Positions 20,917 to 58,349 of a stretch of 64,000 nt of DNA are shown piece after piece. Source of the stretch: Parcubacteria group bacterium (GTDB lineage Bacteria; Patescibacteriota; Minisyncoccia; Minisyncoccales; UBA10102). Both the position numbers and the translations under genes were made by a program. The stretch's first letter is position 1. Every line of letters starts with the position of its first letter. The notes under the pieces were generated by a model, which saw only the letters and a program-made list of their open reading frames with translations, was not told the DNA's origin and made no database searches. Where the stretch lies: assembly GCA_016203945.1 (NCBI GenBank), contig JACQLT010000002.1, positions 181,336-245,335 on the forward strand. Reading direction: 5' to 3'.

Positions 20917-22824
20917 ATGCGCAAGAGAAAGCTTCTCGGGTTGCGACCCACCGCGCTTTTACAGTGGCTGCTCGCAATATTCTTTATCCTCTTTATCCTC
21001 GCTTCAGCCGTCTTTTTATATTATGCCAAAGACCTTCCTAGGCCGGAAAATTTTTCCGAGCTCTCGTTTGCAGAGCCGACTCGCATCTACGACAGGACTG
21101 GAGAACATCTTCTGTACGAACTATATGGCAAAGAGAAGCGCAAGACCGTAGCGTTGCAAGAGATCCCCGACTCCTTGAAACAAGCGATCGTCGCCACGGA
21201 GGACTCTTATTTCTATTCCCATTGGGGGCTGGACTGGCGCGGATTGGCGCGCGCCGTGTTTGCAAATATTCGACTTCTTTCTCCCTCGCAGGGCGGCAGC
21301 ACGCTTACCCAGCAGCTTGTACGCACGGCCTTTTTGTCTCGTACAAAAACAATTGACCGGAAAATCAAAGAGCTCGTGCTTACTTTAGAGGTGGAGCGCA
21401 GGTATTCAAAAGATCAAATCCTTGAGCTTTATCTTAATCAGGTACCCTTGGGTTCTAACGCATACGGAGTGGCAGAGGCCGCAAACGCCTACTTCGCAAA
21501 AGAAGTCGGCACGCTTACGCTTGAAGAATCTGCTGTTTTAGCTGCCATGATTAAGGCCCCAAGCTACTATTCGCCCTTTGGCTTACATCAAGAAGAGCTG
21601 TCTGGAAGAAAAGATTATGTGTTGGGCCGCATGGTGGATCGCAGATACATTTCTCAAGAGCAAGCTGACGAGGCAGAAAGTAGGCGCGTCCAGTTCGCGG
21701 ATTCCGTACAGGGCATCGAGGCCCCTCACTTCTCGCTCATGGTCACCGATGAACTCGTAACCCGGTACGGGGAGGATTTCGTGCGGGAGAACGGGCTTCG
21801 GGTCGTCACCACGCTTGATTGGGATCTTCAAAAGGCGGCCGAGGAAGCCGTGAATAAGTTTGCGGAGCAGAACATTGCGTACGGCGCGCACAACGCGGCG
21901 CTCACGGCGATTGATCCGCGCACGGGGGAGATATTGGCCATGGTGGGCTCACGCAACTGGTTTGGGGACTCAGAGCCCGCGAATTGCACATCGGGGTCCT
22001 CGTGCACCTTTGACCCGAAGCTGAATGTTGCAACGGCGCTTCCGGGCCGCCAGCCGGGATCCTCATTCAAGCCCTTCGTATACGCAGAGGCGTTCTTGAA
22101 GGGCGCCACTGACCAAACCGTCGTCGTTGACGAACCTACCAACTTTGGAATTTGGGGGGATGAGGAATACGCGCCCCAAAACTATGACGGAAAATTCCGC
22201 GGACCAGTCACGCTGAGATCCGCGCTCGCCCAATCATTAAACGTGCCCTCGGTAAAAGTATTGGCTGACATCGCAGGGCTCCAAGACAGCATTGAGCTCG
22301 CAAAGCGCATGGGCATCACAACGCTCACCAGAGAGCCCTCGTTCTACGGCCTGGCGCTCGTGCTGGGGGGCGGGGAAGCCCGACTCCTTGATATGGTTTC
22401 TGCCTACGGCGTTTTTGCCAACGCAGGGAAACGCGTCCCTCCGTTCGCCGTCTCGCGCGTTGAGGATTCCGGGGGGTCTGTGCTGGAAGAGCGCCAGAAC
22501 CTATCGCAAAGCATACTGCCTGTCGAAGTTGCGCAAACAATCACAGATATACTTTCTGACAACCTGGCGAGAACTTCCATATTCGGAGCCCGCTCTCCGC
22601 TCTACTTTGCAAATACCAGGGTCGCCGTAAAAACAGGGACGACCCAAAACTACAAAGACGGGTGGATCATCGGATACACCCCAGACATCGTTGCCGGGGT
22701 GTGGGTTGGCAACAATAACGGAGAAGAGATGGGGCAGGAGCCGGGCTCCGTGGTCGCCGGCCCCATGTGGCATCAATTCATGGAGTATGCAATATCCGCA
22801 AGAAGGAGCGCCTCGGGAAATTAG
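20917..22824 (+). CDS. class A penicillin-binding protein (glycosyltransferase + transpeptidase)
   Basis: ATEDSYFYSHWGLDWRG and GGSTLTQQL (GT51 motifs), SSFKPF (SxxK), SLN, KTGT; start trimmed to MRKRKLLGL (signal anchor) to avoid antisense overlap with tyrS. Confidence 0.85.
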   Translation: MRKRKLLGLRPTALLQWLLAIFFILFILASAVFLYYAKDLPRPENFSELSFAEPTRIYDRTGEHLLYELYGKEKRKTVALQEIPDSLKQAIVATEDSYFYSHWGLDWRGLARAVFANIRLLSPSQGGSTLTQQLVRTAFLSRTKTIDRKIKELVLTLEVERRYSKDQILELYLNQVPLGSNAYGVAEAANAYFAKEVGTLTLEESAVLAAMIKAPSYYSPFGLHQEELSGRKDYVLGRMVDRRYISQEQADEAESRRVQFADSVQGIEAPHFSLMVTDELVTRYGEDFVRENGLRVVTTLDWDLQKAAEEAVNKFAEQNIAYGAHNAALTAIDPRTGEILAMVGSRNWFGDSEPANCTSGSSCTFDPKLNVATALPGRQPGSSFKPFVYAEAFLKGATDQTVVVDEPTNFGIWGDEEYAPQNYDGKFRGPVTLRSALAQSLNVPSVKVLADIAGLQDSIELAKRMGITTLTREPSFYGLALVLGGGEARLLDMVSAYGVFANAGKRVPPFAVSRVEDSGGSVLEERQNLSQSILPVEVAQTITDILSDNLARTSIFGARSPLYFANTRVAVKTGTTQNYKDGWIIGYTPDIVAGVWVGNNNGEEMGQEPGSVVAGPMWHQFMEYAISARRSASGN

Positions 22825-23945
22825 GTCTTGAGAGGCATCACCACATACAGGCAGTCCTCTTCTTTTACGCCCTTCAACAGGGCGGGGCCGTCTTCCCCGC
22901 TCAGCGAGAACTCCACGACGTCGTCTCTAATGGATGCTAAGCCGTCGCTCAAGAACCTCCAACTGAAGGACGTTTCCTGGGGGGTCCCCTCTACCGCGGC
23001 AGCCATGAAAGAAATGTTCTCTCCGAGGTCCGGGCTCTGACTGCGGAACTCAACCCCTTTCTTTTTGGGGTCAATGACAAGCCGTACTTCGTTTATCCTG
23101 TTCGCAAACACGCTGGCCGCCTTGAGGTGGTTGAGAAACTCTGCGCGCTTGGCGCGGACGCTCACCTGAAACGTTTTTGGAATGATTTCTTGGTAATTCG
23201 GATATTCCCCGTCGATGAGCCTTGAGATCAGATGGATCTGGGGCTGGGAAGCGTCTTCTGGCGAAACGTGTTCAAATTCCACTTGAGTGGGGGACTTCGT
23301 GATTCGTATGGCCCCACTCTTTCCTCCGAATATTGCTGTGATCTCGCGAGCCGCTCTCTGGGGAAGGATAAACGAGGCGTCACTCCCCTTCTTCTGAAGA
23401 TTGATGACGCATTCTCCCAGCCGGAAGCTGTCTGTGGCAGCCGTCCGACACTCTTTTTGAGAGAAGCTGAACAACACTCCTGAAATTTCGGGCCTTGTGG
23501 TGCCAAAAGACGCGATCCCGGAAACCCTGTTCAGCGCCTCGCAGAGTTGAGCGGCGCCGATTTCAATCTCTTCTGTCTTGTTTTGAATACTTGGAATGAC
23601 CGGGAATTCTTCTCCTGGAAGCATCCGCAGTGTCGCCTTATTGTTTTCTCCCTCTACCACCAGCCCTTTTTCTTTGGCCTCAAGGGTCGCCTGCTCGCCA
23701 GGAAGAGTGCTGATGAGTTGGGATAGGATTTTTGCTGGCACCACAGCCTGCCATTCCCCCGTGTTTTTTGAAAGTATCTGATACATAATTGCGAACTCCA
23801 GGTTGGTGGCAGAAATCTCGAGAATATTTTTTGTTCCGCGTAATAATATATTTCCTAAAATTGGCAATGACGCAGATTTTCCAGAAATACGTTCTCCGGT
23901 TTGTAACCCTTGCCGCAAGTTTTCTTTCAACACGACAGACTTCAT
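22821..23945 (-). CDS. dnaN: DNA polymerase III beta subunit (sliding clamp)
   Basis: MKSVVLKENLRQGLQTGERISGKSASLPILGNILL, three-domain ~374 aa; adjacent to dnaA. Confidence 0.85.
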   Translation of the reverse strand: MKSVVLKENLRQGLQTGERISGKSASLPILGNILLRGTKNILEISATNLEFAIMYQILSKNTGEWQAVVPAKILSQLISTLPGEQATLEAKEKGLVVEGENNKATLRMLPGEEFPVIPSIQNKTEEIEIGAAQLCEALNRVSGIASFGTTRPEISGVLFSFSQKECRTAATDSFRLGECVINLQKKGSDASFILPQRAAREITAIFGGKSGAIRITKSPTQVEFEHVSPEDASQPQIHLISRLIDGEYPNYQEIIPKTFQVSVRAKRAEFLNHLKAASVFANRINEVRLVIDPKKKGVEFRSQSPDLGENISFMAAAVEGTPQETSFSWRFLSDGLASIRDDVVEFSLSGEDGPALLKGVKEEDCLYVVMPLKT

Positions 23946-24067
23946 AATAAATATTCTTATTTTTTAATACTACTTATTATATATTAGCGCTGTGGGAAAA
24001 ATACGTTTGTGTGTTATTTGTGCTCGTGTGGGCTCGTGGAAATCGTGTGGACGAACAAGGGAAAACA
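23946..24067. other. candidate chromosomal replication origin (oriC) between dnaN and dnaA
   Basis: AT-rich DUE-like tract ttcataataaatattcttattttttaatactacttattatatattag followed by clustered degenerate DnaA-box-like TGTGG repeats (ctgtgggaaaaa, cgtgtgggct, cgtgtggacgaa). Confidence 0.5.
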
Positions 24068-25462
24068 TTAGTTCCCATAAATACGCTGTCTTATCAACGA
24101 CATTTCATCAACCAAAAACTCAGAGGCAAGGAGCTCTTGGGCGACCCTTTGGCACGCATACATTGCGGTGGTGTGATCCTTCCCGCCGAAGCGCTCGCCA
24201 ATGAAAGGATACGAACTTTTCAGTTCTTCCCTGAGAAGATACATGGCGATTTGTCTGGGCTTCACCACTTCTTTCTTTCTGGAGGCGGTTATGAGTTCTT
24301 TCTCTTTGATGTCGTAGAACTCGGCGACCGCGCGGATGATTTTCTGGGGATTTGCCTGCCTTCCGTGGTTTTGGATAACAGTGCGGAGAAGGGTCCTCGC
24401 CTCAGTAAAGGAGGGCTCTTCCCCGTTGAGCCGTTGGAACGCCAAAATCCTGTTAAGCGCCCCTTCCAGCTCCCTCACATTTCTTTGGATATGGGAAGCG
24501 ATATATCCCAGCGTCTCTTCTGACGGAGAAACTCCGAGCTCCTGAGCCTTGGTTTTCAATATAGCCAGGCGCGTCTCAAAGTCGGGGACTCCGACGTCAG
24601 CTATCATTCCGCCCTCAAAGCGCGAACGCAGGCGTTCTTCAAGGGCGGGGATGGCCTTTGGTGGACGATCCGAAGAAAAGATAATTTGTTTACCCCGCTC
24701 ATAGAGCGTGTTGAAGGTATGGAATAATTCTTCCTGGGTTTTTTCTTTGCCCGCGAAAAACTGGACGTCGTCCATAACCAAGACGTCAATTTCTCGGTAG
24801 AGAGACCGTAGCTGCTCCATGGTCTTGTTGCGGATGGCTGCTACCACAGAGGAGGTGAAGCGCTCTGAAGACACATACCGTATCTTCTTGTCGGGCATCT
24901 CAGAGGAGATGGCGTTGCCCACCGCCTGCAGAAGATGGGTTTTCCCCAGCCCCACGCCTCCGTATACAAAGAGCGGGTTATAGACCTGGCCAGGATTCTT
25001 GATGATGGCCATGGACGCCGCGTGCGCGAGCTCGTTGAAGGGCCCCACGACGAAATTATCCAGGGAGTATCGGGGATTGAGGTTCGTTGATTTGCTTATC
25101 CTAAAGTCCGCAAGCGTAAGCTGCGCCTCGCCAGCCGCCTGTTCGCTCCGGCCGTTCGCCCCTTGGTCTGAGCGGCTCGAGGACGCAGAGGACCTCTCTA
25201 CCTCGTAGCGGATTTCCCGGACGCCCTTGGTAAGATCGTGTATGGCGTGGGACACAAGGCGATTATATTTGTTCTGCAGCCACTCTCGCGAGAACCCGTT
25301 TGGCACGGAAACAACAATCTCCCCGTCTTTTTGAGAGACAATAGAGGTGTTCTTGAACCAGGTCGCAAAGTTCGCCCTGGAGATCTGAAGCTGAATACTG
25401 GCAAGGGCGGCCTGCCAGAGCTCCTCATTGGTCATACGTGGATTATATGTAAGTAGGGGCAC
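24068..25462 (-). CDS. dnaA: chromosomal replication initiator protein DnaA
   Basis: NPLFVYGGVGLGKTHLLQAVGN Walker A, AAA+ motifs, C-terminal DNA-binding domain ...HTTAMYACQRV. Confidence 0.9.
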   Translation of the reverse strand: MPLLTYNPRMTNEELWQAALASIQLQISRANFATWFKNTSIVSQKDGEIVVSVPNGFSREWLQNKYNRLVSHAIHDLTKGVREIRYEVERSSASSSRSDQGANGRSEQAAGEAQLTLADFRISKSTNLNPRYSLDNFVVGPFNELAHAASMAIIKNPGQVYNPLFVYGGVGLGKTHLLQAVGNAISSEMPDKKIRYVSSERFTSSVVAAIRNKTMEQLRSLYREIDVLVMDDVQFFAGKEKTQEELFHTFNTLYERGKQIIFSSDRPPKAIPALEERLRSRFEGGMIADVGVPDFETRLAILKTKAQELGVSPSEETLGYIASHIQRNVRELEGALNRILAFQRLNGEEPSFTEARTLLRTVIQNHGRQANPQKIIRAVAEFYDIKEKELITASRKKEVVKPRQIAMYLLREELKSSYPFIGERFGGKDHTTAMYACQRVAQELLASEFLVDEMSLIRQRIYGN

Positions 25463-25636
25463 GCAGTCAAAACAAGCTCAATCTACGACCCCCTGTGTAC
25501 AGCTTGTGCAAAACATGGGGACAAAAGCAAAGACTTTTGCTTTTGTCGGGAGCATATCTATTAATCATCCGCCTTGGGCGGATGTATGGGTAGGAAATGC
25601 TCCCAGGGTCCGCCATAGGCGGGTACCTTATGTGGC

Positions 25637-25665
25637 TTGTAAAAACATCCGTTCGCATATATACT
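25637..25665 (+). promoter_or_regulatory. putative promoter for rpmH-rnpA-yidC-jag operon
   Basis: TTGTAA (25637-42), 17-nt spacer, TATACT (25660-65), 9 nt before rpmH ATG. Confidence 0.35.
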
Positions 25666-25674
25666 GTAAGCTAT

Positions 25675-25809
25675 ATGAGTTTCACCTACAAACCAAAAAG
25701 AAAGAAGAGAATGCGCACCCACGGATTCCTGAAACGAAAAAAAGATTCCGGGGGGAAAAACGTTCTGCGCAATAGGCGAAGGAAAGGAAGAAAGCGGCTA
25801 ACGGTGTAA
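25675..25809 (+). CDS. rpmH: 50S ribosomal protein L34
   Basis: [44 protein letters not shown], canonical L34 ending GRKRLTV; start trimmed within larger ORF-track frame. Confidence 0.85.
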
Positions 25810-25816
25810 CTCCCCC

Positions 25817-26155
25817 ATGTTTCCCAAACCAAACCGACTTACCAAGAGCAGAGAGATCCGGGAGGTACTGCGAAAAGGAGGGGGGGTGAAGCGAAGCACC
25901 CTTCTTCTGAAAGCGGGAGCTCCGGTATCGCCTCCGAAGTTCGCAGTCGTGGTGGGTCGCAAGGTTTCCAAACGCTCGACGGTGAGGAACAAGATTAGGC
26001 GACGGATTCGGGAAGCTCTCCGCCGCGAGCTGGGAACGACAAAAAGAGGGAGCTATGTAGTACTGGCCCTGCCGGGGTCCGCGAACCTCGGGTTCCAGGA
26101 CATATGCAACGCTCTCAGGCAAGCCCTTCAACAGATACGCAATTCTCATGATTAA
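25817..26155 (+). CDS. rnpA: ribonuclease P protein component
   Basis: MFPKPNRLTKSREIREVLRKGG...RNKIRRRIREALRR basic RnpA pattern; follows rpmH. Confidence 0.8.
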   Translation: MFPKPNRLTKSREIREVLRKGGGVKRSTLLLKAGAPVSPPKFAVVVGRKVSKRSTVRNKIRRRIREALRRELGTTKRGSYVVLALPGSANLGFQDICNALRQALQQIRNSHD

Positions 26156-26882
26156 TTTGATTGTTTCTCTGTATAATCTTTTTATCTATCAGCCGCTTTT
26201 GAACGGCCTGGTATTGTTGTATGAGCTTCTTCCGTGGCAAGACCTGGGGATAGCCGTCATCGCGCTCACGCTTCTCGTGCGCATCATTTTGTTCCCTCTT
26301 AATAGCCAGGCCTTTCAGGCCCAAAAGCGGCTTCAACTCTTGCAGCCCAAACTCCAGGAGCTGCAGAAAAGACTGCAGCATAACAAGGAAAAACAAGTTG
26401 CAGAAACCCTTGCTCTCTATAAAACAGAAGGGATCAGTCCTTTTGCGGGGCTTCTCCCTCTTCTCATCCAGATTCCCCTTCTCGTCGCGCTCTACCATCT
26501 CTTTTTTGCGTTCGGTGCAAAAGATGGGCTTCAGGCGTCTCAACTTCAGCTTCTCTACTCTTTTGTCTCTCCGCCGGGAGATGTCAACCCCATGTTTTTG
26601 GGGGTAGTGAATCTCAGTACTGGCTGGGTGGCTTCAGCCGCGCTCGCCGTTGTGGCAGGAGCCCTTCAATTCGTGCAGACGCGCCAAGCCCTTCCCAAGA
26701 AACCCTCGGCAAAAGAGGCCGCCTCTCCTTTCATGAAAGCGTTTCAGCGGCAGGCAACATACCTGTTCCCGCTGGTCACCGTATTCATTTTATTCCGGCT
26801 TCCGGCCGCCATTGGTCTCTACTGGGCGACGACTACGCTGTTCTCCATTTGGCAGCAGGGAAGAATATTGAAAAAATCATGA
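26148..26882 (+). CDS. yidC: membrane protein insertase YidC (short YidC/Oxa1 form)
   Basis: 244 aa, 5 TM, conserved YidC core; position rnpA-yidC-jag. Confidence 0.75.
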   Translation: MINLIVSLYNLFIYQPLLNGLVLLYELLPWQDLGIAVIALTLLVRIILFPLNSQAFQAQKRLQLLQPKLQELQKRLQHNKEKQVAETLALYKTEGISPFAGLLPLLIQIPLLVALYHLFFAFGAKDGLQASQLQLLYSFVSPPGDVNPMFLGVVNLSTGWVASAALAVVAGALQFVQTRQALPKKPSAKEAASPFMKAFQRQATYLFPLVTVFILFRLPAAIGLYWATTTLFSIWQQGRILKKS

Positions 26883-27346
26883 GCGCTGAACCAACAATTG
26901 AAATAGCAAAGCTGCTCGTCAAAGAGCTGTTCTCGCGCCTGGGGATCAAAGAAGCTCCGGCCGTGAGCATGCCAGACGGGCAGACCCTGCAGGTGACCCT
27001 GACAATAGAAGACCCCAAGACCCTTATTGGAGAACGCGGCCAGACGCTGTTTGAAATCCAGCATCTTCTGCGCGCTATGCTCAGAAAAAAACTTCAGCAA
27101 GACCCCCCCCGCGTATTCCTGGATATCAACGACTACCGCAAGAGCAAGGAAGAATATCTTCGGGACGCAGCCCGGCTGGCGGCCGACGAAGCGGTGCTGC
27201 TCAGTAAGCCCCGCGAGCTCGAGGCAATGTCGGCGGCTGACCGCAGGATCGTGCACATGGAATTAGCCCAGCGCTCAGACGTTGCCTCCGAGAGCATAGG
27301 AGAAGGAGAAGAGAGAAGGGTGGTGATAAAGCCGAGGGCATCCTAA
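26879..27346 (+). CDS. jag: RNA-binding protein Jag/KhpB (KH + R3H)
   Basis: KH-like TLIGERGQTLFEIQHLL and R3H RIVHMELAQRSDVASESIGEGEERRVVI; ATGA overlap with yidC. Confidence 0.7.
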   Translation: MSAEPTIEIAKLLVKELFSRLGIKEAPAVSMPDGQTLQVTLTIEDPKTLIGERGQTLFEIQHLLRAMLRKKLQQDPPRVFLDINDYRKSKEEYLRDAARLAADEAVLLSKPRELEAMSAADRRIVHMELAQRSDVASESIGEGEERRVVIKPRAS

Positions 27347-29136
27347 CCCCGGTCTTCTGCGGCGCGCTTCGCAGTTTCCCGCGCCAGGAGTTCTTTGGGA
27401 GACGTGGTGACAATCTCGTGTTCCGTTGGAGAGGCCACCACCTTAATGGCCACGTGTTTTTGTCCCGCAAAAAAGATTCCTTCCCCCAGCCCGGTCTCCA
27501 AGAGCAGCTGCTTTTCCGCTTCGGTAAGATTGAATGCTTTTTGTACAACATCAATGGTTGCAGGGCTTTGCTTGAGTAGAAGCTGCAAAGATGAGTTCGT
27601 GATAATCGGCCTGCCATAATCGGATCGCATAAAGTCACCAACATCTTGGGTGATGGTGGTCACGCCCAGGTAGTACTTCCTGGAGCGTTTCGCGATACCG
27701 TACAGAAAAGATGCTCCGTCTTCTGACTGCATAATCCACCAGGCCTCGTCCACCACGAGAATTCTTTTTTTAAGCACAGACCTCACTACGCTCCAGATGT
27801 AGCGCATGATGATGTACATTGCGAGGGGCCGCAAACCCTCTTCCATGTTGCGGATACCGAAAGAGACCAGGTTGGTGGTAAGAGAAATATTAGAATGCTG
27901 GTTGAAGAAGTTGGCGTAGGTTCCCTTGGTGAACTTTTGGAGTCTGCGCACCAGAGACTCCGCGCCCTCCATGGTAAGGAGCACTTCTTCTAAATCCTGC
28001 ATTAAGGGGATGTTCGCCTGCCAGTTCTTGGGGTCTGAAGTTACCGTAATGTCTTTTGCGGCATAGGTTTCCGTAACGGCTCTGTCCATAATAGAATCTT
28101 CTTCGGGAGTGAGCCCGCCCAGCATGAGGCGCATGAGGCCTACGAGGTTGATGACGTTGGATCGCAGGACGTCGTCTGGCCGCTCATCTTCTCTTGGGAG
28201 CGGCAAGTCAAAGGGATTGATGTGGTTTTCAGATCCCAGAGAAATATCAAAGAATGATCCTCCAGCGGCTTCGCAAAGCGGCTTGTATTCATTTTCAGGG
28301 TCTAACACGACGACGTCTACGCCCGTCATGAGCGACCTGAGAATCTCCAATTTTACTGCGTAGGATTTTCCAGAGCCCGACTTTGCGAATATGACCTCGT
28401 TGGCGTTTTCCAAAGAGAACCGGTCAAAAAGAATAAGAGAATTGTTGTGCCGGTTGATTCCATAGAGAATACCCTCGTTGGAGCTCAAGTCGAAAGACAG
28501 GAACGGAAAGAGCGAAGACAGGGGGCCGGTATTCATTGTGGTATGGGATTGGAGAAGGTCTTTCCCGTACGGGAGGCTGGAATTGAACCCCTCTTTCTGG
28601 CGATAGAGCGCCGGCTTCATATAGATGAGGCGCGACTCAAAAATGGAACGCAGTTCCGTCTTAATCCTCAACAACTCCTCTTGTGTTTCCCCGTATATGT
28701 TCAGGTATACGCCAACCTTGAACATCCTTTCCTGGGCCGTTTGCAGAGCATCCCGCAGGTTCTCAAGATCTGCGAATGCGGTTTCAAGAGAAGGATCTCG
28801 CACAAGGCCTCTTTCGGATTTCTCCATAAGCTCTGACTCAACCTCGGTAACTTTTCTGCGCAGCCGTTTGAGCACCAAGCCAGTGTCCACCGGATGGGCG
28901 AATAAGGCAACATCCATCGGAACCCCCATGTTAATGACCGGAGCTAACCAAGCTGAAGTGAGATACCGAGGGTAGGAGAAGATGAACATGGAAGTCGCCA
29001 GGCGTCCTGCCATGTCCAAATACTCGGAATCCACTTTCACCGTGGCCGGAGCTATGATATCTTTTGCGGTTAGGGTGTCCCTCTCAAAGAGCTTTTCGGA
29101 GACCGCCCCTGTTTTTTTTCCGAATAATGAAGCCAT
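27343..29136 (-). CDS. VirB4/TrbE/CagE-family T4SS ATPase, C-terminal NTPase portion (597 aa)
   Basis: Walker A FAKSGSGKSYAV, Walker B ILVVDEAWWIM, VirB4-like length/pattern; begins 5 nt after the stop of the VirB4 N-domain ORF. Confidence 0.6.
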   Translation of the reverse strand: MASLFGKKTGAVSEKLFERDTLTAKDIIAPATVKVDSEYLDMAGRLATSMFIFSYPRYLTSAWLAPVINMGVPMDVALFAHPVDTGLVLKRLRRKVTEVESELMEKSERGLVRDPSLETAFADLENLRDALQTAQERMFKVGVYLNIYGETQEELLRIKTELRSIFESRLIYMKPALYRQKEGFNSSLPYGKDLLQSHTTMNTGPLSSLFPFLSFDLSSNEGILYGINRHNNSLILFDRFSLENANEVIFAKSGSGKSYAVKLEILRSLMTGVDVVVLDPENEYKPLCEAAGGSFFDISLGSENHINPFDLPLPREDERPDDVLRSNVINLVGLMRLMLGGLTPEEDSIMDRAVTETYAAKDITVTSDPKNWQANIPLMQDLEEVLLTMEGAESLVRRLQKFTKGTYANFFNQHSNISLTTNLVSFGIRNMEEGLRPLAMYIIMRYIWSVVRSVLKKRILVVDEAWWIMQSEDGASFLYGIAKRSRKYYLGVTTITQDVGDFMRSDYGRPIITNSSLQLLLKQSPATIDVVQKAFNLTEAEKQLLLETGLGEGIFFAGQKHVAIKVVASPTEHEIVTTSPKELLARETAKRAAEDRG

Positions 29137-29141
29137 GTGCG

Positions 29142-29774
29142 TTACCGGATGATTTCCGGAGGAATCTCAGGATAGTAGCCGACTTCTGCTTCTTTTGGGT
29201 GATGCCACCCCCAAAACAATTCTATAAGTTCTTCTGAGTTCAAAGGAGCCACTTTTAGGCCCATGCGTCTCAATCCGAGCGCCACGAATTCCATGCGCTG
29301 CCAGAGCTGCGTCTTCATGCGCTGCAAGTCGTCATCGGAAAGCCCCCCCACAATCCTCGGCATGCGCTTCCGGTCGTCAAGCGGCAGGGTTTCTACGAGA
29401 GAAAACGGCACGACTACAAAGAAATTCTTGGTCATAATGGCAGACCCCGCAATGAGGCGCTCCACGAACGCATGGTAGTCCTTGGTGAGCCCCTTCAGCA
29501 GTTCATTCTTCTGATTTACCTCCAGCTCCTTGAGCTGGTCTAAGTAGCCGGTAAGGTTAAGCCTGCGGGATTGGACGACGATCTGCATCGAAAAATCCAG
29601 CGAGTTCAAGAGGGACTGGAACTGGGCAATAGTCGCATCCTGTTCTTCGCCCGACTTCAGGGCGAAATTCTGTGAAGAAACAAGCATGACGCCGCGCACG
29701 GTGCGGTCTTTGAGCACCGCCATTCCCTCTCGGATCTCGTCTAGCTCAAGGAATTCTTGTGTCGTGGCAGCCAT
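29142..29774 (-). CDS. VirB4 N-terminal domain protein (separate ORF, 210 aa)
   Basis: EIREGMAVLKDRTVRGVMLVSSQNFALKSGEEQDATIAQFQSLLNSLDFSMQIVVQSRR aligns in pattern with the VirB4/TrbE N-terminus (LLKDGS..a..G.aFEL.E.E.......N.LL..a.D.aSay.H.RH); combined with downstream ORF about 807 aa equals full VirB4 size. Confidence 0.55.
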   Translation of the reverse strand: MAATTQEFLELDEIREGMAVLKDRTVRGVMLVSSQNFALKSGEEQDATIAQFQSLLNSLDFSMQIVVQSRRLNLTGYLDQLKELEVNQKNELLKGLTKDYHAFVERLIAGSAIMTKNFFVVVPFSLVETLPLDDRKRMPRIVGGLSDDDLQRMKTQLWQRMEFVALGLRRMGLKVAPLNSEELIELFWGWHHPKEAEVGYYPEIPPEIIR

Positions 29775-29777
29775 TGT

Positions 29778-30179
29778 TTAAGATTCAATTTTTGTTGAGA
29801 GTTTGCTAATCTTACTTTCTTTAGAAAGCGTAATCTGGGTTGTGCGGGGTTCGGGCGCAGCTTCCGGGGCAGCAGCGCGAGCTGGCGCGCTGGCGAATAC
29901 GCGCTTCTTTTTCCAGTAGTAGATCTTGCCCCCCATCTGGAAACTCAAGAAATCTATGAATACAGCCGGAAGCGATTTCCCCCCAATCTGCACAAAGGCG
30001 GTGAGAAATCCAAATGCCGCAAGGCCGAGGCTTGCTACCGCAAAGACAAGCAGAGGCGCAAAGAAGTACAGAATAAAGGCGGCTCCGCCCGCGACCGCAA
30101 GAAAAGCGAATTGGCGGAAGGTGAGTGGCCCCACCACCAGCGCCTCTCGTTCAATAAATTGGGGAACTTGGAACTGCAT
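29778..30179 (-). CDS. VirB3/PrgI-like small membrane protein
   Basis: MQFQVPQFIEREALVVGPLTFRQFAFLAVAGGAAFILYFF: conserved G-L-(T/S)-x-RQF motif and 2 TM typical of PrgI/VirB3 family preceding VirB4; start trimmed to MQFQ. Confidence 0.5.
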   Translation of the reverse strand: MQFQVPQFIEREALVVGPLTFRQFAFLAVAGGAAFILYFFAPLLVFAVASLGLAAFGFLTAFVQIGGKSLPAVFIDFLSFQMGGKIYYWKKKRVFASAPARAAAPEAAPEPRTTQITLSKESKISKLSTKIES

Positions 30180-30192
30180 GATGTTTTTTACA

Positions 30193-30624
30193 TTATCTCG
30201 GAGCGCAGGGGATGCTGAAGATCCCGCCCCCAAGCCCGGTCCACTCCTGCACGCCAATGGCAACAAAGAACAGGTTAATGACGAGCCACGAGGCATAGAC
30301 AATGAGCAGCCCGAACATAACGCTTTTCAAAATGTCCCTGCCGCGCTGTATGTTTGCGGGACTTCCCTGCGAGAACAGAAAATACGCTCCCCCGACAACC
30401 ACCATGAGGACAGCCACGGCAGGCACGAAGGTGAATAAGATGAAGTCCAGAATGCGATCGACAAGGAGAAAGATGTGGCAAAATTGGCAGCCCTCTGTTT
30501 TTGCGTCGTATATGCCGTCTCCATCTATATCGTATCCGCAAGGCACCAGCCCCTGGGCAAGGGCAAAAGGAGCTGCGGAGAGCAGCAGGAGAAAGACGGC
30601 GACGAAAAGACATGCTCTTTTCAT
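30193..30624 (-). CDS. secreted two-helix hydrophobic protein, VirB2/TrbC-like pilin candidate (minimal paralog)
   Basis: Signal peptide MKRACLFVAVFLLLLSAAPFALAQG, then two hydrophobic helices separated by polar loop (VVGGAYFLFSQGSPANIQRGRDILKSVMFGLLIVYASWLVIN); shares GGxxY...G.P....R..I....GL....SWL...IN motif with ORFs 35916-37547 and 38895-40490. Confidence 0.45.
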   Translation of the reverse strand: MKRACLFVAVFLLLLSAAPFALAQGLVPCGYDIDGDGIYDAKTEGCQFCHIFLLVDRILDFILFTFVPAVAVLMVVVGGAYFLFSQGSPANIQRGRDILKSVMFGLLIVYASWLVINLFFVAIGVQEWTGLGGGIFSIPCAPR

Positions 30625-30627
30625 TTT

Positions 30628-31077
30628 TTATTCAAACGATTCCCGATACGTATCTTCTTTCTTTGGAGTGGCAGGAGATGGCGCTTCTTGCGCGAAAGCC
30701 GCAGCTGCGGGCGCCGCCTTCTTTACCTGGGGAGCAGCCGAGTTAGCTGCCTCTGTTATGTTATGAAGCTGGCGCAAGCTTTCTTTCACAGGAAAGAAGA
30801 CGAACCTGGTGATATCTCTTGCGATATTCGCAGCCGCGTCTTTTTTAAGCCCCACTTCTTTTTCCAGGGTTTTTTGGAAGTCCTCTGGAAGTAAAATGCC
30901 CATGAGCACTTGTCCCGTAAGCTCCGCAACCCTATTCCCCCGCTCGTCAGTCACGCCCTGCGACAGGCGTGCGTTATAAATCGCATCCGCGGTTTCCACG
31001 GAAAAGATCGCCTCTTGCAGCTCATCGGGAAGCTTTTCAAATATCTGATTAAACTGTTCTTGAGTATACTGTGGCAT
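30628..31077 (-). CDS. hypothetical soluble protein (149 aa, Ala/Pro-rich C-terminus)
   Basis: No TM; in T4SS-like operon between pilin candidate and VirB6-like gene. Confidence 0.3.
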   Translation of the reverse strand: MPQYTQEQFNQIFEKLPDELQEAIFSVETADAIYNARLSQGVTDERGNRVAELTGQVLMGILLPEDFQKTLEKEVGLKKDAAANIARDITRFVFFPVKESLRQLHNITEAANSAAPQVKKAAPAAAAFAQEAPSPATPKKEDTYRESFE

Positions 31078-31226
31078 AGATATAGTTTATCACCGCGAAA
31101 GAATACCACAAGCCTGCCTGCCGCAGGCAGGCGCCACTTGACACAGCCACTTTTTTGTTGTAGTATTGCTCCAGAAAAACTGAACCTTAAGAACAAAAAG
31201 AAAGCAGGCCAGAAAGGAGGTCGCGC

Positions 31227-31445
31227 ATGCCTAAGCTTTCAATGGAGCAGGTCGTTTGGATCGAGCTCATCGCAATCTGGGCCGTGATCGGCCTCCTGGT
31301 GGGCATCATGCTTTGGGAGCGGCTAAGGGAGTTTATTCGGAAGATGTTCCGCTCCCCAATATCTTCAGCAACGCTCCGGGGCAAGAGGAAAACGTTGCGG
31401 GGCCGCCCCGCATACGAAGGGAAATCGAAATCGGTACCCCAATAA
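31227..31445 (+). CDS. small single-TM membrane protein (72 aa)
   Basis: Strong SD aaaggaggt 6 nt upstream of ATG; TM WIELIAIWAVIGLLVGIMLW; precedes SPFH gene. Confidence 0.45.
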   Translation: MPKLSMEQVVWIELIAIWAVIGLLVGIMLWERLREFIRKMFRSPISSATLRGKRKTLRGRPAYEGKSKSVPQ

Positions 31446-32586: not shown

Positions 32587-34998
32587 TTACGCCAGAGAGC
32601 CAGGCCTTCCCCGAGGAAGTTTTTCTTGTCCGCCCTCTTTAGAAGATCCTGTTGCTCCTGGTCTTCCCCGAGGAGTCCGTTCCGGGCCGCCTTCTCCCGG
32701 AGGTGGCGGAGTTGTTGAAGGGGGCGTTGCAGAAGCTCCGCTGGCTCGGGAACGAGCGAGCTTCTCTTGCGTGCGCGTTTGGTCTTCTTCTAGTTCTCGA
32801 ATTTTTTGCAAGCTTTCCGGGGAAAGGTCTACGGCTCCTCCTGGCCGACGCCCCCTTTCTTGTACAAGTTCTTTTTGTATGTCGTCGAGACGGCGCTCTA
32901 ATCCCCGAATGTCTGCGGAACCAGGAACCCGATATCGTTCAATAATTTTTTCAGCGTCGTCTTGTGTGAGCCCTTTTCCTGTTTCAGGGTCTATATATGT
33001 AAAACCAAGATTGTGGGCGCCGGTACTCGAAACCCACTTCAACACATCTGGTGCGTTTTTCCCTAGCCAATCTTTATCAAGACTGCATATGTGATTAGTG
33101 ATTGCTGTTCGTTCTGCTTGTTCTCGCCTGCGAACCATTGGGCCGATAAATTCCGCTCCGCGCTCTATGAGCATCGAGTTAATAAATGCCGCGCCCGCTG
33201 GAGTGCTGGGATCATAGTTGCTCGGCGCATTCTCGTCGCCTTTTAAGTCTTCGGGCGTCATGCGGGCGGGAATCTTTGCTTTCATCCTCTCAAAATATTC
33301 TGCGTCAGAGCCCTTTCTTGAGAGAGCCCCCTCCGTGAACTTTACGCGCCCGGCATCGTCTTTTGCAAACTTGCCTTCAGCATCTCTTTCTAGGTCGTCG
33401 CTTCCGACATTGAAGCCCCATTTCGCTGGGTTAGTCATGATTTGTCCATAGAATGCCTTGAAAAGCGGACGCTCGCCATGGGGACCTATCCTGTCTCTCC
33501 CCAGTTTTATCAATTCTCCGATCTTTGCTTCTTTTCCTACCAACACCCCGTTTTTTTCAGGATCAAAAGCATCTTCAATATCATCTGCGTCTCCGCGGTT
33601 CCTTACTCCGGTCAGCAATCCCAAAATACGATTTTTATTTGGGACGGGCTTTAAGAGCTCGGCATTAACAGTAGCGAACACGTCTCGGGAGTCTCCCATC
33701 TTAGCGGTTTCTTTTACCGCCCTATCAAACGCAGCATAATCCCTAAAGTTAACCTGCTTGGAAAGTTCTCGCGCCCCGGCCTCTGTGACCCCCCAGCCTT
33801 TTCGCAAAGCCATTCCCGCAATAGTTGCCGGAATTCCGACTGCCCTGCCGGCCCCCCGTTTTTCAGCTCCCCATTGCTGCAATCCGCTTGCGAGCGATGT
33901 CATTTTTGTTGCAACTCCCGTAGCTTTGTTCCCGTACCTTCTCCAAAAAGCAGTACCCGCGGTTGCCCCGCCCCACTTGAGACCTTTCATGGCAAACGCC
34001 TTTGTGGCGGTGGCACCCATGGCGCCGCTTGTCTGCAAGGCGACAAAAAATCCCACCAAGAGCATGGCGAGCGCAATGCTGTAGGGTACGGTATCGTTGA
34101 GTATGCCGGCGACAAAGCCGTAAACCCCACCGCCCGAGGGCACTGACGCAGCAATCTCCCCCCGCGCCGCGAGGCTAATGATATGATCTCCCAGCCACAA
34201 GAAGAATGCGGCGAATATTCCAATGATAGACCATTGGAAGAATTGGTTCCACCACCAATTGAACAAGCCCCGCGTTCGCGGAAGGATAAAAGCAGCGAAC
34301 GCGATGGGGGAAAGAATAACCAAAATCCAAATAGCAATCCTCCTCACTATAAAGAGCGCGGCAAAAAGCATGAAAATAATGGCGGCGAAAACCTGAAAAG
34401 CCATGACGGCGAGCAATTGAAATATAAGAGAGATGTCGAAGATATTGCTATTGCCCGAAACAATATTGGTAAGATTTGTTAGAAGGTTCGTAACCAATCC
34501 GATGCCCGCCAATCCTTCCAGGAAAAAATTCATAAAGATGTTGGCGGTATCAACAATGAATCCGGTAATGACCGGGGTGAAGTTGATAAGAAGGGCTACT
34601 CCAATAAGCCGAGGCAGGGTTTTCTTTGCCTCGTATTGCCCAAGGCGCAGGGCGGTTGCCAGCCCAATAATGATTAAAAAGAACACGATAAGCATGTTCG
34701 CAAAATCGCGAACAACAGTCCACCCGGTCTCAACAATGGGACCCGTGGTATACGGAACCCGAATAAAAGAAGGATCAGTCGCAAGGCCAAGAATGATTCC
34801 TGCTATGGTGGCAGCGGCGGTTGTAAGGAAAAGCCCCGCAAGTAAAAATTGACCGATAACCAAAACCGCAATCGCATTTGCAATGCCGCCTAAAAATCCA
34901 CCAAATTGCGCCTGCGCAACGTTTGGAGAAAGGGCGATTCCCATCGAGGCAAAAAGAACAATCGCCAGCACTCCGCGTTTCCAGGCAAAAAATCTCAT
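32587..34998 (-). CDS. VirB6/TcpH-like polytopic membrane protein with ~400-aa C-terminal soluble extension
   Basis: About 10 predicted TM helices in N-terminal 400 aa (VirB6/TrbL-like), then hydrophilic domain ending in Pro-rich TPPSTTPPPPGEGG...PRGRPG; start placed at MRFFAWKRGVLAIV (signal-like). Confidence 0.5.
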   Translation of the reverse strand: MRFFAWKRGVLAIVLFASMGIALSPNVAQAQFGGFLGGIANAIAVLVIGQFLLAGLFLTTAAATIAGIILGLATDPSFIRVPYTTGPIVETGWTVVRDFANMLIVFFLIIIGLATALRLGQYEAKKTLPRLIGVALLINFTPVITGFIVDTANIFMNFFLEGLAGIGLVTNLLTNLTNIVSGNSNIFDISLIFQLLAVMAFQVFAAIIFMLFAALFIVRRIAIWILVILSPIAFAAFILPRTRGLFNWWWNQFFQWSIIGIFAAFFLWLGDHIISLAARGEIAASVPSGGGVYGFVAGILNDTVPYSIALAMLLVGFFVALQTSGAMGATATKAFAMKGLKWGGATAGTAFWRRYGNKATGVATKMTSLASGLQQWGAEKRGAGRAVGIPATIAGMALRKGWGVTEAGARELSKQVNFRDYAAFDRAVKETAKMGDSRDVFATVNAELLKPVPNKNRILGLLTGVRNRGDADDIEDAFDPEKNGVLVGKEAKIGELIKLGRDRIGPHGERPLFKAFYGQIMTNPAKWGFNVGSDDLERDAEGKFAKDDAGRVKFTEGALSRKGSDAEYFERMKAKIPARMTPEDLKGDENAPSNYDPSTPAGAAFINSMLIERGAEFIGPMVRRREQAERTAITNHICSLDKDWLGKNAPDVLKWVSSTGAHNLGFTYIDPETGKGLTQDDAEKIIERYRVPGSADIRGLERRLDDIQKELVQERGRRPGGAVDLSPESLQKIRELEEDQTRTQEKLARSRASGASATPPSTTPPPPGEGGPERTPRGRPGATGSSKEGGQEKLPRGRPGSLA

Positions 34999-35070
34999 TA
35001 CATTATTGTACCACCGCCAAAAGCCTGCGCAACAAGACGCCCCGCTCAATCAGGCGCAGAGGGGGTCGGG

Positions 35071-35915: not shown

Positions 35916-37547
35916 TTAGCGCGCTTTGATTGGAATTACCAAGAGGTATCTTGCCTCGTTGTCTCCGATATGATTATTTTTTAGGCGAATATCGTCCCCT
36001 TCAAACACCTCTGCTCTTCCGTCTTCCCTAAAGAGCACTGCGACATAGTCGCCATTAACCCTAATAGAAGAAGCGCGAGTCTTGCTTAGTACCCTATCGC
36101 AGCTCACCGTACTTTGATTGTCTCCGGATCCGATTGTTGTACCAAAATTTACGGAACCATTCACCCAGAGCGGTTTGCCCGATCTAAGAGCGCCAGTCGC
36201 GTCGGTCTGCGCGTTAATGGGGCCGCAGTGTTTTTGATCAGCCTCATTTCTGTCGCTCTTTGGCTGTTCGTTGAAGTCATAGTTTCCAAAGAGGGTGACG
36301 CCGTCTCCTGAAGGAGAATTGACAGGTATCGTATTGGTTATCGTTTGGTTAGAAACGATTTCATATGGCAAGTATTGATTAAATACCTTTACGGAAGATA
36401 CTTCGTTTGCCACAAATCCTTGGCAGTAGGGCTCTTGCGTCTGACTGCAGGACTCGGCGATTGGGATGCATTCGGCGCGTTGAGCAGGAATTTGGTTGAG
36501 ATCTTTCCCGCCCAAGAACACAGCGCCGTCTCCTTCAAACCTCTCTTTTTCAAACAGTACCACCCCCACCTTGTTTGTTATGGCGCTTATGAATTTGTCT
36601 GACTCGGGAGTGCCTTCTGGAAAGGGGCCAAAAAGAGGCAATCTGGTAATTGAAGGAATGATCTTGAGTGATTTTGCTCGGTTGTCAAAATCTCCGAGAG
36701 TCGCCGTGTTTCCCACATATGCCTGCACCTCGTCACCTGAACATTCTGCCCCGGCAAAAAGGTATACTCCGGGAGTTTTCCAGGTAAGCTGAACAGAGCC
36801 AATCTTTTGTTCCCCGCCAAGCGAAACACATGCGGCTCCGGCATTGTCAGTTTCTAAAGAAGCGGGGATCTCACCGCCCTGCTGCCGGACGCGGTCTGCA
36901 GAGCTGAATACTTTAATTCCCCGGCGATCCTTTTCTTTGTAAATAACAATGTCGAGTTCCGTGCTTGAGTTAAGAAACCTAATTGATCCAGCTTTGGGAA
37001 AATTTATGCTCACGCCAGGAATTTCGTTGGTGAGATCAGAGAGAGTGTTTTTTACCCGCAGAAAATCCACTCCTTCTCGCAGTCCTTTTGTGCTTCCGCA
37101 ATTGTCTCCCGCAAACAAGATAACTCCCTGTTTTGAAAAATTAGCATCTTTATCTATCTTAAGAATAACAAGCTGTGGGTTAATGGTAGTAAGCAAAAGC
37201 CATGAGCCAAGAAGTAGTACCAGCCCAAGAAGAGAGGCTTTGATCTGCTCCCTTGCGTCTGAAAGCGCCCCCGGATTTCCGGCAGAAGAGACATATCTGA
37301 ATCCTCCATAGACAAAAGAAACAAACGCGGCGAGTCCGGCAACCGCAATGCCAAGGTTGAACATGTACTTGATAAAGTTGGGAAGACTTCGCACCTCGTT
37401 GGGGGGCTGGGCTCCTCCCGGCACCTGCGGGTATTCGAGTTCCAGCTGCTGGGCAAACGCGACAGGCAAAACCAAAGAGAACACAAACGCAATCAACACG
37501 GCTGCTACGAGAATGGTAAATACAAGGCGTACTCGTTTTTGCTTCAT
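35916..37547 (-). CDS. pilin-like (VirB2-type N-terminal module) protein fused to large extracellular repeat domain (543 aa)
   Basis: Signal peptide, then LELEYPQVPG...FIKYMF...VYGGFRYVSSAGNPGALSDAREQIKASLLGLVLLLGSWLLLTTINPQL (paralogous to 30193-30624 and 38895-40490); C-terminal 400 aa with 5 internal G(V/I)xLF...G repeats. Confidence 0.45.
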   Translation of the reverse strand: MKQKRVRLVFTILVAAVLIAFVFSLVLPVAFAQQLELEYPQVPGGAQPPNEVRSLPNFIKYMFNLGIAVAGLAAFVSFVYGGFRYVSSAGNPGALSDAREQIKASLLGLVLLLGSWLLLTTINPQLVILKIDKDANFSKQGVILFAGDNCGSTKGLREGVDFLRVKNTLSDLTNEIPGVSINFPKAGSIRFLNSSTELDIVIYKEKDRRGIKVFSSADRVRQQGGEIPASLETDNAGAACVSLGGEQKIGSVQLTWKTPGVYLFAGAECSGDEVQAYVGNTATLGDFDNRAKSLKIIPSITRLPLFGPFPEGTPESDKFISAITNKVGVVLFEKERFEGDGAVFLGGKDLNQIPAQRAECIPIAESCSQTQEPYCQGFVANEVSSVKVFNQYLPYEIVSNQTITNTIPVNSPSGDGVTLFGNYDFNEQPKSDRNEADQKHCGPINAQTDATGALRSGKPLWVNGSVNFGTTIGSGDNQSTVSCDRVLSKTRASSIRVNGDYVAVLFREDGRAEVFEGDDIRLKNNHIGDNEARYLLVIPIKAR

Positions 37548-40490: not shown

Positions 40491-40921
40491 TATGTTTGAA
40501 GCTCGGAGTATACCATAAAGGTCCAGAGGGGGAGCGCTCCTACGTAGGGGATGACTTCTCCAATAAAGGCAACAGGTCGAAGCCACTTGGACCGGCCTGC
40601 CATTTTTGCGGTTCTTGCCTCTGCTTGCGCGCCTCTCGTCTCCATTTGGGGACGACTTCCCCTGAACAGCATCCAAAGCCCTATGGTGCAGTAGGCTATA
40701 AAATCGGTAATGAAAAAATCGTCTAGCCCAAAAAGAACCAAGCCAATCCCAATGATGTCTATTATTCCTGCAATGGACATCATTATAAACCCCTCGGGAC
40801 TCAAGAGAGAGGCGCCCCCGCCTTCATCTGCCGTTTGCTCTTGGCTGCCAGTTTGGTCTTGGGGAGCTTCTTCTGTCTGCGCAGGCGCTCCTTCTTGCTC
40901 CTGTACTTCTTCGTCTGCCAT
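40490..40921 (-). CDS. small membrane protein with acidic N-terminus (143 aa)
   Basis: MADEEVQEQEGAPAQTEEAPQDQTGSQEQTADEGG then 3-4 TM; translationally coupled (TAATG) to pilin-fusion gene; first gene of minus-strand cluster. Confidence 0.4.
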   Translation of the reverse strand: MADEEVQEQEGAPAQTEEAPQDQTGSQEQTADEGGGASLLSPEGFIMMSIAGIIDIIGIGLVLFGLDDFFITDFIAYCTIGLWMLFRGSRPQMETRGAQAEARTAKMAGRSKWLRPVAFIGEVIPYVGALPLWTFMVYSELQT

Positions 40922-40940: not shown

Positions 40941-40990
40941 TCCTTAACTAAGTTAAGGATACATCACTCTATCCTTAGCTAAGCTAAGGA
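40941..40990. promoter_or_regulatory. pair of 19-bp palindromes (TCCTTAACTAAGTTAAGGA ... TCCTTAGCTAAGCTAAGGA) between ksgA 3' end and pilin-cluster start
   Basis: Perfect inverted repeats at 40941-40959 and 40972-40990; first followed by ATACAT as at 52933-52954; candidate operator and/or ksgA terminator. Confidence 0.4.
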
Positions 40991-58029: not shown

Positions 58030-58036
58030 GAAAGAT

Positions 58037-58330: not shown

Positions 58331-58349
58331 GTAATATACTAATAAACAT

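What the first reader, a model, noticed from the sequence alone, without database searches (positions are those of the whole stretch)
29130..29775. VirB4 encoded as two ORFs: N-domain (210 aa) stop TAA, 5 nt, ATG of ATPase part (597 aa), in different frames
The 210-aa ORF matches the VirB4/TrbE N-terminal region. The 597-aa ORF carries Walker A/B. Together they are about 807 aa, full VirB4 size. The junction is TAA-CGCAC-ATG with a frame change, so it is not a simple read-through. No SD precedes the second ATG; a CCGGA-AATCAT-TCCGG hairpin lies there instead. An A8 homopolymer (29112-29119 on the coding strand) sits 5 codons into the ATPase part. Options are a genuine split gene translated by termination-reinitiation coupling, a recent frameshift or pseudogenisation, or a sequencing indel.
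Basis: seen in the sequence. Interest (0 to 1): 0.6.

Follow-up and report, generated by a model that had tools for sequence, protein, structure and literature searches.

The report
Conserved two-gene VirB4 (TrsD plus ATPase)
The apparent "broken" VirB4 gene is the normal, already published arrangement in Patescibacteria (CPR bacteria): a small TrsD-like protein, equivalent to the start of VirB4, sits in its own gene directly upstream of the VirB4 ATPase gene, so nothing is damaged or unusual.

Summary
On the minus strand a 210-aa ORF (29774..29142, stop TAA) is followed after 5 nt (CGCAC) by a 597-aa VirB4-type ATPase ORF (29136..27343) in another frame.

It is not a frameshift, pseudogene or assembly error.
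- Three independent assemblies from separate sequencing runs carry the identical junction.
- In 78 of 78 assessable species-level relatives, a ~202-230-aa gene ends in a stop codon and the ATPase gene follows. Spacing runs from -4 nt (ATGA overlap, 14 loci) to +186 nt (median 5.5), and all three relative frames occur.
- The small protein is strongly conserved, with thousands of standalone homologues.
- It is remotely homologous to TrsD of staphylococcal plasmid pGO1, which has the same order: pilin, VirB3-like, TrsD, VirB4.

Quiñonero-Coronel et al. 2025 (PMC12102498) already describe TrsD as a remote homologue of the VirB4 N-terminal portion. They report it as the most abundant T4SS component of Patescibacteria, usually next to virB4 and near dnaA, exactly as in this window.

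The hairpin, the A8 run and the missing SD are incidental. The finding is already known and of low interest.

The parts
29142..29774 (-). TrsD-like gene (210 aa). It is a standalone homologue of the first ~200 residues of VirB4 (precomputed Pfam PF26593 'TraC-like'). It is soluble, with no hydrophobic segment.
29137..29141 (-). 5-nt intergenic spacer CGCAC between the TAA of the TrsD-like gene and the ATG of the VirB4 gene.
   Evidence: Identical in three Logan assemblies. In relatives the spacing varies from -4 to +186 nt.
27343..29136 (-). VirB4-type T4SS ATPase gene (597 aa), CD1110 / MPF-FATA-like. Walker A GSGKS lies at about residues 253-257. It is intact.
   Evidence: It aligns from residue 1 to residue 3 of pGO1 TrsE (672 aa, BLASTP 1e-31). 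Orthologue lengths are mostly 582-625 aa.
29778..30296 (-). PrgI/VirB3-like membrane protein gene, 3 nt upstream of the TrsD-like gene.
   Evidence: PF12666 PrgI at 8.3e-7; two hydrophobic segments; a PrgI gene call in the Logan contigs.
30193..30624 (-). VirB2-like T4SS pilin gene.
   Evidence: PF18895 T4SS_pilin at 5.4e-6..
32587..35049 (-). Polytopic membrane protein (up to 820 aa) with no family hit. VirB6-like candidate, by inference only.
   Evidence: no hits; at least 7 hydrophobic segments in the first ~345 residues.
35916..37547 (-). 543-aa protein with an N-terminal T4SS_pilin-like domain.
   Evidence: PF18895 at 3.3e-5. Mbov_0395 pilin-like at 2.8e-4.
22821..25462 (-). dnaN and dnaA, marking the origin-proximal position of the T4SS cluster. 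yidC lies at 26148-26882 (+) and ksgA at 40953-41831 (-).
   Evidence: The same context is reported for Patescibacteria T4SS in PMC12102498.

Best explanation
This is the chromosomal, origin-proximal type IV secretion-like locus of a Parcubacteria/Paceibacteria-type member of the Patescibacteria (CPR). In this lineage the VirB4 function is encoded by two ordinary adjacent genes.

- The first is a ~210-aa soluble TrsD-like protein that corresponds to the first ~200 residues of single-chain VirB4 proteins.
- The second is a ~600-aa protein carrying the rest of VirB4, including the Walker A/B ATPase domain.
- Both are intact and under purifying selection.
- They are co-transcribed with the pilin and VirB3-like genes upstream (inferred from 3-5-nt gaps and the lack of any promoter or terminator signal).

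The tiny, variable spacing (often an ATGA overlap in relatives), in a genome that hardly uses Shine-Dalgarno sequences, makes translational coupling to the upstream gene likely. That is inferred, not shown.

The two products presumably reassemble non-covalently into a VirB4-like unit docked on VirB3/PrgI at the membrane. This is inferred from the R388 structure, where the VirB4 N-terminal part contacts VirB3.
For: Junction and ORFs.

Not an artefact: three Logan assemblies of different runs (SRR12113420, SRR12113424, SRR12113430) are identical across the junction, including the A8 run.

Conserved split:
- 78 of 78 assessable GTDB species-representative loci have stop + restart.
- Gaps are -4 nt in 14 loci, -1 in 2, 1-20 in 42, 21-60 in 13 and >60 in 7; the median is 5.5.
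- Relative frames are 37/22/19.
- N-gene lengths are 202-230 aa (one of 265) and ATPase lengths are mostly 582-625 aa.

Abundance and conservation: 6719 homologues, the best 120 all 203-230 aa. There are 1584 clusters at 50% identity, and the top 150 are nearly all standalone. The C-terminus ...HHPxEAEVGYYPEIPPE and the stop position are conserved.

Identity of the small protein:
- AF2 model pLDDT 90.5.
- The top 14 Foldseek hits are all TrwK.
- NCBIfam VirB4_plasma 2.6e-7, CD1110 positions 12-114, TrsD 0.043.
- hhalign to pGO1 TrsD gives E 4e-5 over 168 columns.
- The fused relative P0226 aligns to the VirB4_plasma model in one stretch, residues 3-882 to model 92-893.

Nothing is missing at the junction. 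The N part covers CD1110 positions 12-114 and the C part covers 175-734. The 93 + 11 unaligned residues in between span the 60 remaining model positions.

Same architecture in pGO1: pilin, TrsC, TrsD (227 aa), a 14-nt gap, then TrsE (672 aa). TrsE aligns from its residue 3 to residue 1 of the window ATPase.

Literature: PMC12102498 reports TrsD as a remote homologue of the VirB4 N-terminal portion. It found 2,272 homologues in Patescibacteria, 1,664 of them next to virB4, and the gene is essential in Ca. Southlakia epibionticum. It also reports the locus near dnaA/dnaN/ksgA.
Against: - Sequence similarity of the 210-aa protein to TrsD and to the VirB4 N-terminus is weak: E 0.043 to 2.6e-7, and hhalign probability only 70% against a single-sequence template.
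- Assignment to the N-terminal part of TrwK rests on fold-search scores. The tools did not report target residue ranges.
- Co-transcription, translational coupling and physical reassembly of the two proteins were not tested.
- PMC12102498 notes that TrsD homologues in Gracilibacteria are not adjacent to virB4, so an obligatory 1:1 complex is not certain across the phylum.
Confidence: 0.93

Rival explanations
1. A recent frameshift or nonsense mutation has broken a formerly single virB4 gene, and the locus is decaying.
For: The two ORFs are in different frames only 5 nt apart. A few other MAGs do carry truly broken ATPase ORFs: L001, L005, L052 and L064.
Against: - The split is present in 78 of 78 relatives down to ~57% identity, with different spacings and frames.
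- The stop position and C-terminal motif of the small protein are conserved.
- Both ORFs are full length relative to their orthologues.
- Thousands of standalone homologues exist.
- The same split point occurs in pGO1 TrsD/TrsE.
Confidence: 0.01
2. A sequencing or assembly indel, for example at a homopolymer, artificially splits one gene.
For: This is a MAG-derived sequence, and an A8 run lies 20 nt downstream of the ATG.
Against: - Three independent Logan assemblies from different runs have 0-1 mismatches over 1.7-2.8 kb and an identical 141-nt junction.
- The A8 run is downstream of the second start codon and in frame, so it cannot cause the split.
- Relatives show the same two-gene structure.
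Confidence: 0.01
3. The two ORFs are joined into one ~807-aa VirB4 by programmed ribosomal frameshifting or stop-codon bypass at the junction, helped by the hairpin.
For: There is a frame change with a short spacer and a small hairpin just upstream of the stop. A fused relative exists (P0226, 898 aa).
Against: - The hairpin is no more stable than shuffles (z 0.09) and is absent in the closest relatives.
- Spacing ranges from -4 to +186 nt and all three relative frames occur, which no single recoding mechanism fits.
- No slippery heptamer precedes the TAA.
- The second ORF begins with a conserved ATG (MAS/MK...) in nearly all loci.
Confidence: 0.02
4. The 210-aa protein is an independent T4SS accessory factor that only shares ancestry with the VirB4 N-terminus. 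It does not function as a detached VirB4 domain.
For: [quoted passage not shown]
- Some homologues carry long low-complexity tails (P0146, P0198).
Against: - The gene is tightly adjacent to virB4 in 78 of 78 loci examined here.
- The fold matches VirB4 best.
- The fused form is collinear with full-length VirB4 models.
Confidence: 0.1

Closest known systems
TrsD + VirB4 of the Patescibacteria T4SS (Quiñonero-Coronel et al. 2025, Microb Genom, PMC12102498; essential genes in Ca. Southlakia epibionticum ML1, Wang et al. 2023 Cell, as cited there)
   Same: - A ~210-aa TrsD-like gene sits immediately upstream of a ~600-aa virB4.
- PrgI/VirB3-like, VirB2-like pilin and a candidate VirB6 gene lie in the same cluster.
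- The locus is chromosomal, beside dnaA, dnaN and ksgA.
- No relaxase was seen in the cluster.
   Different: Nothing substantive. This window is one more genome of the same kind. The exact protein is already in NCBI as HY458_01840, Parcubacteria group bacterium. The paper does not discuss junction spacing; that detail is an increment only.
TrsD/TrsE of Staphylococcus aureus plasmid pGO1 (and TraD/TraE of pSK41/pIP501-type plasmids), MPF-FATA class; NCBIfam NF041427
   Same: - Same gene order: pilin-like, VirB3-like, TrsD (227 aa), VirB4-like ATPase (672 aa), with a 14-nt gap.
- The ATPase proteins align from their very first residues, so the split point is homologous.
- hhalign of the CPR family against pGO1 TrsD gives E 4e-5.
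   Different: - pGO1 is a conjugative plasmid with a relaxase and coupling protein. The window locus is chromosomal, next to oriC.
- Sequence identity is about 17-22%.
- The window protein scores far below the NF041427 cut-off (13.6 vs 200 bits).
Single-chain VirB4 ATPases (R388 TrwK, PDB 7O42/7O43/8RTD; CD1110 family NF045971; mycoplasma ICE VirB4 NF045975)
   Same: - The two window proteins together are collinear with the CD1110 and VirB4_plasma models.
- A fused CPR relative exists (P0226).
   Different: Here the first ~200 residues are a separate polypeptide. In the fused CPR form the two parts are joined by a ~90-aa Pro/Ala-rich linker, which suggests they are independently folding modules.

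Membership tests
VirB4-type T4SS ATPase (CD1110 / MPF-FATA-like), for the 597-aa ORF | Scores above the curated cut-off of a VirB4 family model | tested here: met
   NF045971 conju_CD1110: 369.3 bits against a cut-off of 325, E 3.8e-110, model positions 175-734 of 752.
VirB4-type T4SS ATPase (CD1110 / MPF-FATA-like), for the 597-aa ORF | P-loop NTPase with Walker A and Walker B | tested here: met
   Pfam P-loop_TraG 1.2e-23, AAA_10 and DUF87. Walker A AKSGSGKS and the hydrophobic-DE motif ILVVDEAWW are visible in the translation.
VirB4-type T4SS ATPase (CD1110 / MPF-FATA-like), for the 597-aa ORF | Encoded in a cluster with other T4SS components (VirB3, VirB2, VirB6) | tested here: met
   PrgI and T4SS_pilin genes lie upstream in the same orientation. 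A polytopic 820-aa VirB6 candidate is inferred only.
VirB4-type T4SS ATPase (CD1110 / MPF-FATA-like), for the 597-aa ORF | ATPase activity and a requirement for secretion | not testable with these tools
Essentiality is reported for the orthologous genes of Ca. S. epibionticum, as cited in PMC12102498.
TrsD/TraD family (VirB4 N-terminal-like), for the 210-aa ORF | Detectable homology to the TrsD profile or prototype | tested here: inconclusive
   NF041427: E 0.043, 13.6 bits against a cut-off of 200, so not met at the curated level. hhalign of a 63-sequence CPR alignment against pGO1 TrsD gives E 4e-5, probability 70%, 168 columns. The fused relative P0226 hits TrsD at 3.1e-5. PMC12102498 assigns this family to TrsD with the CONJScan profile. 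It is a remote member of a superfamily, not an NF041427 equivalog.
TrsD/TraD family (VirB4 N-terminal-like), for the 210-aa ORF | ~200-aa protein encoded directly upstream of a short (~600-670 aa) VirB4 and downstream of a VirB3-like gene | tested here: met
   Window, pGO1, and 78 of 78 relatives for adjacency to the ATPase gene.
TrsD/TraD family (VirB4 N-terminal-like), for the 210-aa ORF | Fold of the N-terminal part of VirB4 | tested here: met
   [not shown]
Pseudogene / disrupted gene | The disruption is absent from orthologues and the ORF is truncated relative to the family | tested here: not met
   The split is present in all 78 relatives and both ORFs are family-typical in length.

The most novel reading that the evidence does not exclude
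The separation of the N-terminal module could be functionally exploited. As a free subunit, TrsD might be incorporated at a stoichiometry different from the ATPase, for example only on the VirB3-bound inner VirB4 ring, or it might serve as an exchangeable adaptor. Strict termination-reinitiation coupling would then set its dosage in these SD-poor genomes. This would make the CPR/pGO1 type of T4SS mechanistically distinct from single-chain VirB4 systems. Nothing here tests this. Only the tight but variable spacing and the existence of non-adjacent TrsD genes in Gracilibacteria (literature) leave it open.
Probability: 0.1. Interest if true: 0.45.

Novelty: already known. Interest (0 to 1): 0.12.

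Why it matters
It matters mainly as a negative result. This "split VirB4" should not be flagged as a pseudogene, a recoding site or an assembly error in CPR genomes. Annotation pipelines and scans should treat TrsD-like + short VirB4 as the standard architecture of the Patescibacteria (and pGO1-type) T4SS. Published work finds that system essential for the epibiotic lifestyle. How a detached VirB4 N-terminal module works remains open, but that question is already recognised in the literature.

Tried and rejected
- Pfam-A scan of the 210-aa ORF gave no hit in the local copy. The precomputed annotation gives PF26593 'TraC-like'.
- A profile search of the CPR alignment against PDB sequences gave nothing meaningful (best E 1.2, a ketoacyl-ACP reductase), so structure comparison was needed.
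- The hairpin as a regulatory or recoding element was rejected: z 0.09 against shuffles and not conserved.
- The A8 run as a slippery or indel-prone cause of the split was rejected. It is downstream of the ATG, in frame, inside a lineage-specific 21-nt insertion, and identical in three assemblies.
- Lack of SD as evidence for special reinitiation was rejected as uninformative. SD cores occur at background frequency genome-wide (9 of 57 against 15%).
- The promoter/terminator scan of 26800-31400 found no more than chance and nothing at the junction.
- The 820-aa ORF and several small ORFs in the cluster gave no Pfam or NCBIfam hits.
- Genomic context of the fused form P0226 could not be checked, so a gene-calling artefact there is not excluded.

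Full report
**Observation.** On the minus strand, ORF 29774..29142 encodes 210 aa and ends in TAA. Five bases later (CGCAC), ORF 29136..27343 starts with ATG in a different frame and encodes 597 aa.

The 597-aa product is a VirB4-type ATPase. It matches NCBIfam NF045971 (CD1110 family) at 369 bits against a cut-off of 325, E 3.8e-110, model positions 175-734 of 752. It also matches Pfam P-loop_TraG, AAA_10 and DUF87.

The 210-aa product has no hit in the local Pfam-A copy. It weakly matches the N-terminal parts of VirB4 models: VirB4_plasma 2.6e-7, and CD1110 positions 12-114 at E 0.0015. It also weakly matches the 201-position TrsD/TraD model at E 0.043. The description is therefore accurate. 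Only the hairpin was slightly mis-transcribed: it is CCGGA-AATCA-TCCGG.

**Is it an artefact?** No. The exact 210-aa protein is found on three Logan contigs assembled independently from three different runs (SRR12113420, SRR12113424, SRR12113430). These are identical to the window over 1.7-2.8 kb (0, 0 and 1 mismatch), including the 141 nt around the junction and the A8 run.

**Is it a recent disruption?** No.
- A word-indexed search found 6719 homologues of the 210-aa protein. The best 120 are all 203-230 aa, from Parcubacteria, Wildermuthbacteria and other Patescibacteria.
- An exhaustive HMMER search of 50%-identity representatives found 1584 clusters. Nearly all of the best 150 are standalone proteins of about 200-440 aa.
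- The alignment shows strong conservation up to a shared C-terminal motif (HHPxEAEVGYYPEIPPE) and a shared stop position.
- A scan of one genome per GTDB species returned 80 loci. In all 78 where sequence continues past the small gene, it ends in a stop codon and the VirB4 ATPase gene starts nearby.
- The spacing is an ATGA overlap (-4) in 14 loci, -1 in 2, +1 to +20 in 42, +21 to +60 in 13 and more than +60 (up to +186) in 7. The median is 5.5 nt.
- The relative frame of the second start is 2, 1 or 0 in 37, 22 and 19 loci.
- The small gene is 202-230 aa (one of 265). Complete ATPase genes are mostly 582-625 aa.

Variable spacing and frame, with both reading frames conserved, is the signature of two old, separately translated genes. 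It does not fit a frameshift or a recoding site.

**What is the small protein?** An AlphaFold2 model built on 63 diverse homologues is confident (mean pLDDT 90.5, pTM 0.80).
- Foldseek against the PDB returns TrwK/VirB4 chains of the R388 T4SS as its 14 best hits (probability about 1.0, query TM-score 0.45-0.51).
- A rare fused relative (P0226, 898 aa) has the same module at residues 1-213, a ~90-residue Pro/Ala-rich linker, and then the ATPase part.
- P0226 aligns in one stretch to the full-length VirB4_plasma model (residues 3-882 to positions 92-893), and its N-terminus hits TrsD at 3.1e-5.
- No residues are missing at the window junction. The unaligned 93 residues of the small protein plus the first 11 of the ATPase more than cover the 60 unaligned model positions.

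**Closest described system.** In plasmid pGO1 the order is a CagC/VirB2-like gene, trsC, trsD (227 aa), a 14-nt gap, then the VirB4-like trsE (672 aa).

The window has the same order: T4SS_pilin (30624..30193), PrgI/VirB3-like (30296..29778), TrsD-like, VirB4. TrsE aligns with the window ATPase from its residue 3 to window residue 1 (E 1e-31), so the split point is the same. Profile comparison of the CPR family with pGO1 TrsD gives E 4e-5 over 168 columns (probability 70%).

**Literature.** Quiñonero-Coronel et al. [quoted passage not shown]
- It was the most abundant T4SS component they retrieved in Patescibacteria: 2,272 homologues in 2,221 assemblies, 1,664 of them associated with virB4.
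- A TrsD homologue next to virB4 is essential in Ca. Southlakia epibionticum.
- The cluster often lies beside dnaA, dnaN and ksgA, near the replication origin.

The window matches this description: dnaN at 22821-23945, dnaA at 24068-25462, yidC at 26148-26882 and ksgA at 40953-41831. The finding is therefore already known.

- The hairpin is no more stable than shuffled sequence (MFE -8.9 against a mean of -9.1 kcal/mol, z 0.09). It is destroyed in the nearest relatives, where CCGG becomes CAAA or CAAG.
- The A8 run encodes GKKT within a 21-nt in-frame stretch that those relatives lack. It is downstream of the start codon, so it is unrelated to the split.
- The absent SD is a property of the genome. 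Only 9 of 57 long ORFs have an SD core at -20..-4, against 15% at random positions.
- The promoter and terminator scans show nothing beyond chance and nothing at the junction.

**Mechanism.**
- Shown: two intact, conserved genes, the small one with the fold of VirB4 (best match TrwK).
- Inferred: the pilin, VirB3-like, TrsD-like and VirB4 genes are co-transcribed (gaps of 3-5 nt).
- Inferred: the ATPase gene is translated by coupling or reinitiation after termination at the TrsD stop, as suggested by the ATGA overlaps in 14 relatives.
- Inferred: the two soluble proteins (no hydrophobic segments) reassemble non-covalently into a VirB4-like unit on the VirB3/PrgI membrane anchor.

**Verdict.** The frameshift, pseudogene and indel readings are refuted. 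The "genuine split gene" reading is correct but ordinary and already published. Interest is low.

Noticed in passing
L007, L029, L030, L036, L038, L041 (e.g. L029:4652-8428, L007:4708-8622): In 6 of 78 related Patescibacteria loci the VirB4 ATPase gene carries a ~520-700-aa in-frame insertion near the Walker A region. Pfam identifies it as an intein (Intein_splicing) with a LAGLIDADG homing endonuclease.
   Followed up: partly
L001, L005, L052, L064: In these MAGs the VirB4 ATPase ORF is truncated (364, 278, 407 and 448 aa). In L001, L005 and L052 the rest of the protein matches further downstream. These look like real frameshifts or assembly errors, unlike the window.
   Followed up: no
window, whole (57 long ORFs): Shine-Dalgarno cores (GGAG/GAGG/AGGA at -20..-4) occur upstream of only 9 of 57 long ORFs, the same as the 15% background. 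This genome essentially does not use SD-led initiation.
   Followed up: partly
window 58001-64000: G+C falls to 0.42-0.45, against about 0.50-0.54 in most of the window. This could be a compositionally foreign segment.
   Followed up: no
window 32587-35049 (-): An ORF of up to 820 aa inside the T4SS cluster has no Pfam or NCBIfam hit but at least 7 hydrophobic segments in its first ~345 residues. It is a candidate divergent VirB6-like channel protein with a long extension.
   Followed up: partly
window 35916-37547 (-) and 38895-40676 (-): Two large proteins (543 and 593 aa) carry a weak N-terminal T4SS_pilin-like domain followed by long unannotated regions. They may be pilin-fused surface proteins.
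   Followed up: no
P0226, P0146, P0198 (database proteins): P0226 is a fused TrsD-VirB4 form (898 aa) with a ~90-aa Pro/Ala-rich linker. P0146 and P0198 are standalone TrsD-like proteins with 200+-aa low-complexity C-terminal tails. The junction region is a flexible, evolutionarily plastic linker.
   Followed up: partly
window 22821-26882 and 40953-41831: The T4SS cluster is flanked by dnaN, dnaA, yidC and ksgA, so it is origin-proximal, as reported for many Patescibacteria.
   Followed up: yes
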